Of a DNA stretch of 64,000 bases, positions 1,121 to 51,252 are shown piece after piece. Source of the DNA: Octopus sinensis (Eukaryota). How positions within the stretch are numbered: the stretch's first letter is position 1; every line of letters starts with the position of its first letter. The notes beneath the pieces are model-generated. The model worked only from the letters and a program-made list of their open reading frames with translations, made no database searches and was not told the DNA's origin. The position numbers and the translations under genes are program-made. The stretch lies in NCBI RefSeq assembly GCF_006345805.1, contig NC_043014.1, forward strand, positions 38,688,001 through 38,752,000, written 5' to 3'.

Positions 1121-1330
1121 AGTTAATCCAAACATGAAAACACAAAGAGAAAACACAACAACGTGAGGACGTGGAACAAGTATAGTGTTATTGGACGCTC
1201 ATAAAAAGGAAAGAAAGAAAGAGGATTTAACGTTTCGAGCGAAGCTCTTCGTCAGAAACATAGGGAAAGGAAAGATCCAAGGAAGGGAAGACGGGGGGGA
1301 AAAAATCGCCAACGATACACATGCGGTCAG
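1121..1330 (-). mobile_element. Penelope-like pLTR fragment, family H2, with minimal hammerhead-like motif at about 1225-1260
   Basis: Minus strand reads TGTTT CTGACGA A GAGC TTC GCTC GAAA CGTTA. It starts right after a (TA)n tract; a homologue lies at 45277-45460. Confidence 0.65.
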
Positions 1331-23192: not shown

Positions 23193-23207
23193 TATATACA
23201 CACACAC

Positions 23208-23248
<41 letters not shown>

Positions 23249-23250
<2 letters not shown>

Positions 23251-23490
23251 GGAGTAAACACATAAATGTGAAACAAGGTGGAAAAAAGAGAACTCAAATA
23301 CCAGGGGTAGAGTAATATGCTTTATTTAAAAGCAGCAGAAATTCAACAAAACCTGTTACTCGGAGTTTCATGTTCCCGTTCGTCGGACAGTTTTTTTAAC
23401 AAAACTATCCGACAAACTGTCCGACGAACGGGAACGTGAAACTCCGAGTAACAGGTTTTGTTGAATTTCTGCTGCTTTTAAATAAAGTAT
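23249..23490. mobile_element. Penelope-like inverted pLTR pair, family H4, between (TA)n tracts
   Basis: Arms at about 23316-23393 and 23414-23490 are near-perfect reverse complements. Confidence 0.75.
23417..23454 (+). ncRNA. Minimal type I hammerhead-like motif with CCGACGA core (H4); mirror copy 23353-23390(-)
   Basis: CTGT CCGACGA ACG GGAA CGT GAAA CTC C GAG TA ACAG. All three stems pair, stem II has a GNRA loop, and the cleavage triplet is GUA. Confidence 0.7.
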
Positions 23491-23502
23491 ATATATATAT
23501 AT

Positions 23503-23697
23503 TGATAAAAATGGTAAGACAACAAAAGAATGAAAGATATCTCGATATTATGTAAATAGAGGAATTTATCTGAAATATGTAACAATTATTCGGTAGCCAT
23601 GATAAAAGTCCGAGTTTCGGATGTCAGGGTGGAAATCCACACTGCCATCTCTTCAGTTATCCGACCATCGGAAAAAATACTATGAAAATGACCGTTT
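23503..23697 (-). mobile_element. Family H1 pLTR fragment with hammerhead-like motif at 23601-23661
   Basis: Homologous to 6290-6470 and flanked by (TA)n on both sides. Confidence 0.7.
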
Positions 23698-30636: not shown

Positions 30637-30769
30637 GGGAAAGTTTACGAAAATAAACAAAAGACGAAGGCAGGTGGTGTACAAACAAACAGATGTATTA
30701 GTATAACGCTCAGGAATAGAAAAAGTCTTTTACATTTCGAGCCTACGCTCTTCTACAGAAAGGTACATA

Positions 30770-45277: not shown

Positions 45278-45460
45278 GTTAATCCAAACAAGAAAGCACA
45301 AAAAAACAACATAGTATAGTATTATATATATATATAACACAAATATAGTATTATTGGACGCTCAGGAAAGAAGGAAAGAAGGAGGGTTTAACGTTTCGAG
45401 CGGAGCTCTTCGTCGGAAACATAGGAGAAGGAAAGATCCAGAGAAGGAAGACAGAGGGAA
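45277..45460 (-). mobile_element. Family H2 pLTR fragment with hammerhead-like motif at about 45385-45420
   Basis: Minus strand reads GTTT CCGACGA A GAGC TCC GCTC GAAA CGTTA AAC; homologous to 1121-1330. Confidence 0.6.
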
Positions 45461-48929: not shown

Positions 48930-48981
48930 GTCTCCGATGAGAGGATATATTAATTAATATCCTAGAGAAACAGCTGTAAGG
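48930..48981 (+). ncRNA. Hammerhead-like motif with CCGATGA core (H8) in a (TA)n-flanked element at about 48685-49050
   Basis: TCT CCGATGA G AGGATAT...ATATCCT AGA GAAA CAGCTG TA AGG, with palindromic stem III ACAGCUGU. Confidence 0.55.
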
Positions 48982-49047
48982 GTTTCTATCTATAAATGCT
49001 CTAATATCTATAAAGCCTTGGTTATTTATCTTATTGCGCAAAAAATT

Positions 49048-51084: not shown

Positions 51085-51252
51085 CACTACACATTTTTAT
51101 TTTCTCTCCTGTTTCTTTCTGTGTTCCTTTCTGTAGAAGAGCGAAGGCTCGAAACGTTAAAGACTTTTTCTCTTCCCGAGCGTTATACTAATACATCTTT
51201 GGTTGTCTACACCACCTGTCTTCATCTTTCTTTTTTTTGTGAATTCTCCCCC
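51085..51252 (+). mobile_element. Family H3 pLTR fragment with hammerhead-like motif at 51127-51162; a diverged opposite-strand relative lies at about 50790-50940
   Basis: CTTT CTGTAGA A GAGC GAAG GCTC GAAA CG TT AAAG, flanked by (TA)n on both sides. Confidence 0.65.

What the first reader, a model, noticed from the sequence alone, without database searches (positions are those of the whole stretch)
23249..23490. Minimal hammerhead pair with a non-canonical CCGACGA core
Seen: both arms have all three stems but C in place of the normally conserved U4. The same change appears in two unrelated families (45411-45416 and 48934-48940). Inference: recurrence suggests a tolerated or selected core variant, such as an attenuated ribozyme or a structural signal, rather than random decay.
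Basis: partly seen in the sequence, partly recalled or inferred. Interest (0 to 1): 0.75.

Follow-up and report, generated by a model that had tools for sequence, protein, structure and literature searches.

The report
Retroelement hammerheads with a U4C core
The finding is a head-to-head pair of truncated ends of a Penelope-like jumping gene, each carrying that element's hammerhead ribozyme motif with C in place of a normally fixed U; thousands of copies in three such families share this change, so it is likely tolerated and not random decay.

Summary
Window 23249-23487 is one copy of a high-copy repeat whose arms carry a three-stem hammerhead shape with the core CCGACGA. In this copy the minus-strand arm has a C·A mismatch in stem II.

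CCGA is the subfamily consensus. Genome-wide there are 1,553 exact CCGAYGA 20-mers, against 168 CTGA and 132 CCAA, the two products of CpG decay.

[quoted passage not shown] This element has a 727-766 aa ORF with reverse-transcriptase (RT) and GIY-YIG-like endonuclease motifs. It also has pseudo-LTRs, inverted 5'-truncated copies and (TA)n targets. Intact-ORF copies carry the same motif with the canonical CUGAUGA core. Intermediate subfamilies (CCGAUGA, then CCGACGA) link the two forms.

In each, CCGA (55 and 54 of the first 100 listed copies) coexists with CUGA (41 and 36). A further family has a fixed A6U core.

The 'pair' is a by-product of PLE head-to-head insertion, and at this locus it would fold as a 79-bp hairpin.

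Shown: U4C is family-wide, recurrent and compatible with amplification. Untested: whether it cleaves. This is a new variant of a known kind, of moderate interest.

The parts
23249..23487 (.). One insertion of the repeat (239 nt) between (TA)n tracts. It consists of a full terminal unit on the minus strand joined head-to-head to a shorter unit on the plus strand.
   Evidence: Sequence. 40 scored genome places at 86-100% identity out of 1,897 first-look candidates. The same boundaries and (TA)n flanks are seen in the copies.
23249..23319 (-). Last 71 nt of the retroelement's 3' end (reads ...GUUUACUCCGG-3' on the minus strand). It is present on one side only.
   Evidence: 1,108 first-look candidates, 40 scored at 99-100% identity. 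The same sequence ends the 3' UTR of the ORF-bearing copies L227 and L228.
23341..23398 (-). Minus-strand hammerhead-like motif. The core is the complement of 23386-23380, with C4 opposite G23385. Stem II is broken in this copy by T23371 (C·A).
   Evidence: Sequence. 23371 T>C is the common letter in other copies. Not found by the descriptor.
23397..23411 (.). Junction (apex) between the two 5'-truncated units. Its position varies from copy to copy.
23412..23460 (+). Plus-strand hammerhead-like motif: stem I, core CCGACGA 23421-23427 (C4 = 23422), stem II 23428-23437 with a GGAA loop, GAAA 23438-23441, stem III 23442-23449, H17 = A23450. The predicted cleavage site is between 23450 and 23451.
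   Evidence: Descriptor hit. Homologous to the CUGAUGA motif of the ORF-bearing copies.
23451..23487 (+). Short side: 37 nt from the predicted cleavage site to the element's end (...UUUUAAAUAAAG).
   Evidence: The length is 37 nt in 25 of 27 copies measured.
45372..45422 (-). Second family (F2): GUUU CCGACGA A GAGC-UCC-GCUC GAAA CG U U AAAC. This is the minimal PLE hammerhead layout with U4C. The core is at 45416-45410.
48931..48983 (+). Third family (F4): GUCU CCGAUGA ... GAAAC AGCU GU A AGAC. The core is at 48934-48940. This copy has extra bases before GAAA.
1221..1259 (-). F2 copy of the canonical subfamily: GUUU CUGACGA A GAGC-UUC-GCUC GAAAC GU U AAAU. The core is at 1255-1249.
30724..30762 (-). 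F3 copy, a relative of F2 with the core CUGUAGA (A6U). The core is at 30758-30752. A second copy lies on the plus strand with its core at 51131-51137.

Best explanation
The finding is a head-to-head pair of 5'-truncated 3' ends of a Penelope-like retroelement inserted in a (TA)n tract, and each arm carries that element's hammerhead motif in a subfamily-wide U4-to-C form (CCGACGA) that likely still serves the source elements as a weakened ribozyme or as its fold.

Shown:
- The repeat is the terminal ~150 nt of a long element with a 727-766 aa ORF, pseudo-LTRs, an inverted upstream copy and (TA)n targets.
- The motif sits 108 nt from the 3' end.
- The ORF-bearing copies have the canonical CUGAUGA core. 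The subfamily consensus forms make a one-step series: CUGAUGA, CCGAUGA, CCGACGA with a GCAA loop, then CCGACGA with a GGAA loop (this copy).
- The same U4C is the consensus of large subfamilies in two other PLE-derived families.

Inferred:
- In source elements the motif would cut tandem pseudo-LTR transcripts to unit length, as proposed for PLEs.
- U4C would slow this without stopping amplification.
- At this locus the copy is a dead-on-arrival fragment. Any transcript of it would fold into a 79-bp hairpin that hides both motifs.
For: Family-wide state.
- 62 of 66 unique arms have C at position 4 and 4 have T.
- Genome exact 20-mers: CCGAYGA 1,553, CTGAYGA 168, CCAAYGA 132. The two minor forms are near-equal, as CpG decay on either strand predicts.
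- Contigs of four runs under four organism labels hold the family. None shows a variant of 5% or more at 23422 or 23385.

PLE identity.
- Upstream sequence is continuous in longer copies.
- L228 has a 727-aa ORF with a YRDD motif, a C-terminal GVVY...YTG block and a Cys-rich linker. L227 has a 766-aa ORF.
- The protein Atlas's nearest clusters (0.96-0.99) carry HTH_animal, DUF8422, GIY-YIG and RVT_1. The tool calls these leads.
- L228 shows an inverted 5'-truncated copy, then a direct partial copy ending ...CUCCGG joined to the 5' UTR, then the ORF, the 3' UTR and (TA)n. This is the layout described for PLEs in PMC8557442 (passages).
- The motif lies on both sides of the ORF in L227 and L228 with core CUGAUGA.
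- Median distance from the predicted cut to the 3' end: 108 nt here (n=29), 101 in F2 (n=51), 100 in another endonuclease-bearing lineage (n=9).

Series and constraint.
- GCAA-loop relatives: 4,803 hits. My hand count of the first 100 listed gives 63 CUGAUGA, 23 CCGAUGA, 12 CCGACGA, 1 CUGACGA and 1 CCAAUGA.
- The four consensus sequences differ at 6 sites in the 50-nt motif: U4, N7, the N of the GNRA loop, 11.1, the centre of stem III and the stem I bulge. Four of these are positions the hammerhead model leaves free.
- In F2, two CCGA subfamilies differ at 2 of 18 motif positions that the search pattern did not select. They differ at 46 of 82 upstream and 40 of 107 downstream flank columns.
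- A CCGAUGA copy (L225) still has a 654-aa open frame.

Recurrence (hand counts of the first 100 listed).
- F2: 12,496 hits; 55 CCGA, 41 CTGA, 4 CCAA.
- F4: 2,182 hits; 54 CCGA, 36 CTGA, 7 CCAA, 3 CTAA.

Precedent: Perreault et al. 2011 (PMC3088659, passage) state that a U4C viroid variant 'considerably decreases activity in vitro' yet keeps infectivity.
Against: - No cleavage data exist for any of these motifs.
- The isolated arms do not take the hammerhead fold as their minimum-energy structure and fold no better than shuffles (z +0.54 and +1.20).
- The whole element folds as one hairpin of -135.9 kcal/mol.
- Rfam gives no hammerhead match at E up to 10. It also misses the canonical CUGAUGA and CUGACGA versions, so this says little.
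- The motif lacks two traits listed for PLE minimal hammerheads (PMC4209133): there is no extra base between A9 and 10.1, and the closing pair is A10.1-U11.1 instead of G-C.
- Canonical PLE hammerheads already cleave poorly in vitro (PMC4209133). Naiad PLEs amplify without any hammerhead (PMC8557442). The motif may therefore be dispensable and U4C neutral.
- The direction of change could not be settled. A quick tree that included the core columns put CUGA copies basal. A careful tree without those columns put CCGA copies basal.
- The pattern counts need exact flanks, so diverged copies are not counted.
Confidence: 0.5

Rival explanations
1. Neutral relic. U4C kills the ribozyme, and the dead motif rides along because hammerhead cleavage is not needed for these elements to copy themselves.
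For: [quoted passage not shown]
- U4C lowers activity considerably in vitro (PMC3088659).
- A related family (F3, 17,986 hits) has A6U fixed: 0 of the first 100 listed copies have A at position 6. Core damage is therefore common here.
- All four subfamilies of the finding's family are similarly young, at 1.6-3.4% from their own consensus.
Against: - The same single change recurs as the consensus in three families that cannot be aligned outside the motif.
- Changes between subfamilies fall mainly at positions the hammerhead leaves free. N7 varies freely in F3.
- In F2 the unselected part of the motif differs at 2 of 18 positions between CCGA subfamilies whose flanks differ at 86 of 189 columns.
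- C4 sits in a CpG that decays several times faster than other sites, yet it is kept in the consensus.
Confidence: 0.27
2. Structural signal only. The three-way junction is kept because the element's own reverse transcriptase or endonuclease recognises it, and catalysis no longer matters, so core positions 4 and 6 are free to change.
For: - Stems and most of the core are conserved across subfamilies, while positions 4 (U/C), 6 (A/U in F3) and 7 vary.
- The distance of about 100-108 nt to the 3' end is constant in three lineages.
Against: - No evidence exists for protein recognition of PLE hammerheads.
- G5, G8, A9 and GAAA, which matter for catalysis more than for the fold, stay fixed in all families seen.
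Confidence: 0.15
3. Chance look-alike inside a palindromic repeat (a foldback element or hairpin RNA precursor) with no hammerhead ancestry.
For: - Rfam lists only microRNA-hairpin-like matches below threshold (mir-4773, 50.2 bits against a gathering score of 100).
- The hairpin is the dominant fold.
- There is one core mismatch, and the arm's minimum-energy fold is not a hammerhead.
Against: - The arms are 5'-truncated ends of a long ORF-bearing element whose own copies carry the same motif with a perfect CUGAUGA...GAAA...GUA core in both pseudo-LTRs.
- The palindrome's apex varies from copy to copy.
- Shuffles give 0.2 hits against 5 observed.
Confidence: 0.03

Closest known systems
Minimal type I hammerheads in the pseudo-LTRs of Penelope-like elements (Cervera and de la Pena 2014, PMC4209133; passages read)
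   Same: - The motif lies in the terminal repeat of an RT plus GIY-YIG-type element.
- It is type I, with a short near-palindromic stem III (ACUC-N-GAGU here; C-G or C-AGCU-G in F2 and F4).
- Copies also occur as pairs on opposite strands.
- The families are large.
- F2 and F4 also have the extra base after A9, and a G10.1-C11.1 (F2) or G·U (F4) closing pair.
   Different: - The core has C at position 4 as the subfamily consensus.
- The finding's own family has no extra base after A9, an A10.1-U11.1 (or A·G, A·A) closing pair and a GNRA loop on a 2-3 bp stem II.
- No activity data exist.
U4C hammerhead variant of a viroid (Ambros and Flores 1998, as cited in Perreault et al. 2011, PMC3088659; only the citing passage was seen; the original paper is not held)
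   Same: The same core substitution. It is reported as much less active in vitro but sufficient in vivo.
   Different: That case is a variant of an infectious circular RNA with a type III hammerhead. Here U4C is the consensus of thousands of genomic retroelement copies in three families.
Animal non-LTR retrozymes and the Schistosoma Sm-alpha element (PMC7229834; bioRxiv 10.64898/2026.07.22.740005; abstracts and passages)
   Same: Short non-autonomous hammerhead-bearing repeats thought to derive from PLE pseudo-LTRs.
   Different: Retrozymes are tandem arrays with canonical cores and give circular RNAs. The copies here are dispersed, 5'-truncated and often head-to-head, and no RNA data were available.
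Plus and minus hammerheads facing each other in the rod or branched fold of avsunviroids (recalled, not from a call)
   Same: Two similar hammerhead sequences of opposite polarity are paired with each other, which would block self-cleavage in the folded form.
   Different: Here the facing arrangement arises from the DNA insertion mechanism and varies between copies. There is no sign of RNA replication.

Membership tests
Hammerhead ribozyme (type I) | Three helices around a junction, with stem I open | tested here: met
   Plus arm: stem I of 4 + 7 bp with one bulge, stem II of 3 bp plus a GGAA loop, stem III of 3 bp (sequence). The minus arm of this copy has a C·A mismatch in stem II; the family consensus pairs.
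Hammerhead ribozyme (type I) | Conserved core C3 U4 G5 A6 N7 G8 A9 ... G12 A13 A14 A15.1 ... U16.1 H17 | tested here: not met
   All positions match except U4, which is C in 62 of 66 arms and in 1,553 of 1,853 exact genome 20-mers. The sister subfamily with intact ORFs meets it fully (CUGAUGA).
Hammerhead ribozyme (type I) | Match to Rfam hammerhead covariance models | tested here: inconclusive
   There is no match at the gathering score or at E up to 10. The canonical-core relatives are missed too, so the models are blind to this small form.
Hammerhead ribozyme (type I) | Site-specific self-cleavage after H17 | not testable with these tools
   Only assembled contigs of public runs were available, and no run is on record as RNA.
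PLE minimal hammerhead (Cervera and de la Pena 2014) | Extra base between A9 and 10.1, and a G10.1-C11.1 pair | tested here: not met
   The finding's family has no extra base, and 10.1-11.1 is A-U (A·G or A·A in sister subfamilies). F2 at 45416 meets both. F4 has the extra base with a G·U pair.
PLE minimal hammerhead (Cervera and de la Pena 2014) | Short stem III with a palindromic 15.2-16.2 pair or loop 3 (dimer-prone) | tested here: met
   ACUC-C-GAGU (or ACUC-A-GAGU) is a palindrome apart from its centre base. F2 has C-G and F4 has C-AGCU-G.
PLE minimal hammerhead (Cervera and de la Pena 2014) | Located in the terminal repeat (pseudo-LTR) of a PLE | tested here: met
   The motif lies on both sides of the ORF in L227 and L228, 108 nt before the unit's 3' end.
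Penelope-like element (parent of the repeat) | Single ORF with reverse transcriptase and a GIY-YIG endonuclease | tested here: inconclusive
   The ORFs are 727 and 766 aa, with YRDD and GVVY...YTG motifs read by eye. Pfam gave 0 families at E up to 0.1. Atlas look-alike clusters carry GIY-YIG, RVT_1, HTH_animal and DUF8422 at scores 0.96-0.99, as leads only.
Penelope-like element (parent of the repeat) | Partial tandem (pseudo-LTR), an adjacent inverted 5'-truncated copy, frequent 5' truncation and a microsatellite target | tested here: met
   L228 layout. Variable truncation and head-to-head joints. (TA)n flanks in nearly all copies. Features as listed in PMC8557442.

The most novel reading that the evidence does not exclude
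Position 4 of the hammerhead works as a recurrent C/U toggle in this animal's Penelope-like elements. Three separate families each keep thousands of CCGA copies beside canonical CUGA sister subfamilies, although the C sits in a fast-decaying CpG. On this reading a weakened (U4C) ribozyme is actively favoured in source elements, for example because slower self-cutting keeps more full-length template RNA. A single CpG deamination then switches a lineage back to the fast canonical core.
Probability: 0.22. Interest if true: 0.72.

Novelty: new variant of a known kind. Interest (0 to 1): 0.55.

Why it matters
What hammerheads do for Penelope-like elements is an open question. The papers read here call their function unclear (PMC8557442), and canonical PLE hammerheads cleave poorly in vitro (PMC4209133).

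This genome offers a natural comparison. Closely related subfamilies differ by one nearly invariant core base. Both states have amplified to hundreds or thousands of copies, and this happened in three families.

Cleavage assays on matched CCGA and CUGA pairs, together with mapping of RNA ends, would show two things. The first is whether U4C is an active natural core. The second is whether ribozyme speed matters for retrotransposition.

The result also warns that descriptor searches demanding CUGA miss tens of thousands of hammerhead-derived motifs. The Rfam models missed even the canonical small forms here.

Tried and rejected
- Rfam at the gathering score gave 0 hits in the window. At E up to 10 on 23200-23550 it gave only sub-threshold microRNA-like hairpin matches. 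It also missed the canonical-core relatives, so it is uninformative here.
- Expression and cleavage ends: no RNA holder is listed among 24 runs. The four runs laid were contigs, which cannot show RNA ends.
- Earlier notes of this scan: nothing was on file for this genome.
- First attempt to find the parent: an endonuclease-like ORF fragment beside an F2 copy led to a different lineage (1,626 candidates). Its 3' end carries a UUGAAAA (U3-A8) minimal motif. A GIY-YIG Pfam match in that lineage was weak (E 6.5e-4, 20.4 bits, below the 22.6 cut-off). My descriptor found no consistent motif downstream in those 30 loci.
- Pfam on ORF fragments and on the 727-aa ORF of the true parent gave 0 families.
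- Direction of the U/C change in F2: trees rooted on F3 disagree, so the polarity is unresolved. Subfamily ages in the finding's family are too close to order (1.6-3.4%, n = 9-23).
- I first read the longer palindrome in L033 as a nested foreign insert. One search showed it is the same element, truncated further upstream.
- Literature: a search for 'hammerhead' plus 'U4C' found 1 paper. 'Hammerhead ribozyme' plus 'cephalopod' found 4 papers and listed 2, neither on these motifs. I found no report of U4C in PLE hammerheads. Lunse et al. 2017 (PMC5785218) and Ambros and Flores 1998 (PMC147498) are not held and may bear on this. Supplements of PMC4209133 and PMC8557442 were not opened.

Full report
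**What is at the coordinates.**
- Window 23249-23487 lies between (TA)n tracts.
- It holds a 79-nt inverted repeat, arms 23315-23393 and 23414-23492, 97% complementary, 20 nt apart.
- The plus-strand arm can be drawn as a type I hammerhead: stem I CAAACUGU / ACAG-G-UUUUG, core CCGACGA (23421-23427), stem II ACG-GGAA-CGU, GAAA (23438-23441), stem III CUC-CG-GAGU and H17 = A23450.
- A descriptor I wrote (three stems, at most one core mismatch) finds it, along with four other sites in the window: 45416-, 30758-, 51131+ and 1255-.
- In 100 dinucleotide-preserving shuffles of the window the mean was 0.0 canonical and 0.2 one-mismatch hits.
- The minus-strand arm of this copy has T23371 where other copies have C. 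This gives a C·A mismatch in stem II, and the descriptor did not find that arm.
- Rfam gives nothing at its gathering scores. At E up to 10 it lists only sub-threshold microRNA-like hairpins. It also misses the canonical-core relatives found later, so its silence carries no weight.

**It is a repeat, and CCGA is its consensus.**
- The window lies in a 2.72-Gb genome of 13,516 contigs.
- The 179-nt palindrome has 1,897 first-look candidates. The 40 scored places are 86-100% identical.
- The 74-nt non-palindromic end has 1,108 candidates, with 40 scored at 99-100%.
- Across the 60 loci fetched, 66 unique arms cover the motif. Position 4 is C in 62 and T in 4.
- Exact genome counts with a fixed 20-mer context are CCGAYGA 1,553, CTGAYGA 168 and CCAAYGA 132. 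The two minor forms are the two outcomes of CpG deamination and are nearly equal.
- Contigs of four public runs under four organism labels all hold the family. None shows a variant of 5% or more at 23422 or 23385.

**What the repeat is.**
- Copies are flanked by (TA)n on both sides.
- The joint between the arms varies from copy to copy, symmetrically or not.
- Of 30 loci chosen only by the terminal 74 nt, 7 have the motif on both arms, 12 on one arm and 11 on none. This set includes the window's own locus and two overlapping pairs of loci.
- Some copies carry the 71-nt end on both sides (L041). Others are single units cut at arbitrary 5' points.
- Longer copies continue upstream into shared sequence, and then into an ORF.
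- A search with the ORF's last 101 residues gives 13,002 first-look candidates, with open frames up to 766 aa.
- L228 shows the whole layout:
  - an inverted 5'-truncated copy;
  - a direct partial copy ending ...UUUACUCCGG, joined straight to a 5' UTR;
  - a 727-aa ORF with YRDD, a Cys-rich linker and a GVVY...YTG block;
  - a 1.15-kb 3' UTR ending in the same 150 nt, followed by (TA)n.
- This matches the published description of Penelope-like elements: partial tandems forming pseudo-LTRs, an adjacent inverted 5'-truncated copy, heavy 5' truncation and (TA)n targets (PMC8557442, passages).
- Pfam found no family in the ORF. Atlas look-alikes carry GIY-YIG, RVT_1, HTH_animal and DUF8422 (leads only). 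The protein assignment therefore rests on layout and on motifs read by eye.

**The parent's hammerhead is canonical.**
- In L227 and L228 the motif lies on both sides of the ORF and reads AAAACUGU CUGAUGA ACG-GCAA-CGA GAAA CUC-A-GAGU A ACAGAUUUUG.
- A pattern for GCAA-loop relatives gives 4,803 hits. My hand count of the first 100 listed is 63 CUGAUGA, 23 CCGAUGA, 12 CCGACGA, 1 CUGACGA and 1 CCAAUGA. With CCAA at 1, the differences are subfamily states and not decay.
- The consensus sequences form a one-step series: CUGAUGA with GCAA, CCGAUGA with GCAA, CCGACGA with GCAA, then CCGACGA with GGAA (the finding).
- They differ at six sites in the 50-nt motif: U4, N7, the N of the GNRA loop, 11.1, the centre of stem III and the stem I bulge. 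Four of the six are positions a hammerhead leaves free.
- All four subfamilies are young. Divergence from their own consensus at 47-49 non-CpG sites outside the pattern is 1.6% (13 of 22 copies identical), 3.4%, 1.7% and 2.6%.
- A CCGAUGA copy (L225) keeps a 654-aa open frame.
- The predicted cut lies 108 nt from the unit's 3' end (n=29). The equivalent distance is about 101 nt in F2 (n=51) and about 100 nt in another endonuclease-bearing lineage (n=9). The short side of the finding ends 37 nt after the cut in 25 of 27 copies.

- The 45416 site (minus strand) reads GUUU CCGACGA A GAGC-UCC-GCUC GAAA CG U U AAAC. This is the minimal PLE hammerhead layout of PMC4209133 with U4C.
  - Its family (F2) is (TA)n-flanked and 5'-truncated, with a constant 3' end.
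  - It has 12,496 pattern hits. By hand count the first 100 listed are 55 CCGA, 41 CTGA and 4 CCAA.
  - In the first 60 fetched (30 CG, 28 TG, 2 CA), the CTGA copies carry linked diagnostic changes, so they form a real canonical subfamily. The copy at window 1255 belongs to it.
  - Two well-separated CCGA subfamilies differ at 2 of 18 motif positions that the pattern did not select (H17 and one stem I base). They differ at 46 of 82 upstream and 40 of 107 downstream columns.
- The 48934 site belongs to a further family (F4), with 1,630 first-look candidates.
  - Its consensus is GUCU CCGAUGA A GGGAUAU...AUAUCCU A GAAAC AGCU GU A AGAC. CCGA is in 12 of 12 of the best copies.
  - It has 2,182 pattern hits. 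The first 100 listed are 54 CCGA, 36 CTGA, 7 CCAA and 3 CTAA.
- A relative of F2 (F3, window 30758- and 51131+) has the core CUGUNGA. It has 17,986 hits. In the first 100 listed, position 6 is U in 98, C in 2 and A in 0, while N7 takes all four bases.
- F2 and F3 differ at the fourth stem I pair by G-C against C-G, a change on both sides.

**How it most likely works.**
- Shown: the finding is a truncated, head-to-head fragment of a PLE, and its hammerhead-shaped motif is homologous to a canonical one.
- Shown: U4C is the consensus of large, recently amplified subfamilies in three families.
- Inferred: in source elements the motif would cut tandem pseudo-LTR transcripts to unit length, as proposed for PLEs (PMC4209133, PMC6765202). 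U4C would weaken this without stopping amplification.
- The viroid precedent fits. U4C is reported as much less active in vitro yet sufficient in vivo (PMC3088659, passage).
- At this locus nothing is likely to happen. There is no ORF, and any read-through RNA would fold into a -135.9 kcal/mol hairpin (z -20) that hides both motifs. The isolated arms do not prefer the hammerhead fold.

**What stays open.**
- There are no cleavage or RNA-end data.
- The direction of the U/C change is unresolved.
- Naiad PLEs thrive without hammerheads (PMC8557442), so a neutral relic remains a serious rival.
- The recurrence of one particular change argues that the motif is still under constraint in CCGA lineages. 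So do the free-position pattern of the other changes, the conservation of the F2 motif against its flanks, and the retention of a fast-decaying CpG. None of these proves catalysis.

**Verdict.** 'Not random decay, tolerated' is supported. 'Selected or attenuated' is untested. The 'pair' is an insertion by-product. This is a new core variant of a known kind, the PLE hammerhead, documented here at family scale.

Noticed in passing
window 30752-30758 (-) and 51131-51137 (+); genome-wide: A very large family (17,986 pattern hits) related to F2 has the hammerhead-like core CUGUNGA. A6 is replaced by U in 98 of the first 100 listed copies, and none has A. N7 takes all four bases. This is a second fixed deviation at a normally invariant core position.
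   Followed up: partly
L104, L105, L109, L113, L114, L124 (about 1,900-1,960 in oriented loci): Another endonuclease-bearing PLE lineage (1,626 candidates) ends in a minimal motif UUC UUGAAAA U GGGG-UCAUAA-CCCC GAAA UA U U GAA. Its core has the U3-A8 covariation reported for Schistosoma PLEs. The motif lies about 100 nt before a (TA)n-flanked 3' end.
   Followed up: partly
window 23214-23248, 23488-23503 and the flanks of nearly all copies in L001-L100: All four PLE-derived families sit inside or beside (TA)n tracts, often long ones. These elements may both target and seed much of this genome's (TA)n microsatellite load.
   Followed up: no
window 23451-23487; 25 of 27 copies: The shorter unit always ends 37 nt after the predicted cleavage site. 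This is within the 30-40 bp 'tail' reported at one end of PLE insertions (PMC8557442). It may mean the tail starts at the hammerhead cut.
   Followed up: no
window 23249-23487: The copy would give a near-perfect 79-bp RNA hairpin (-135.9 kcal/mol). With thousands of such head-to-head copies, read-through transcripts could be a large source of long double-stranded RNA for editing or small-RNA pathways.
   Followed up: no
L212 2231-2851 (-) and L211 2520-3065 (+): Fragments of other retroelement ORFs (a LINE-like RT and an LTR-type RT/RNase H-like stretch, judged by eye) lie just upstream of truncated PLE copies.
   Followed up: no
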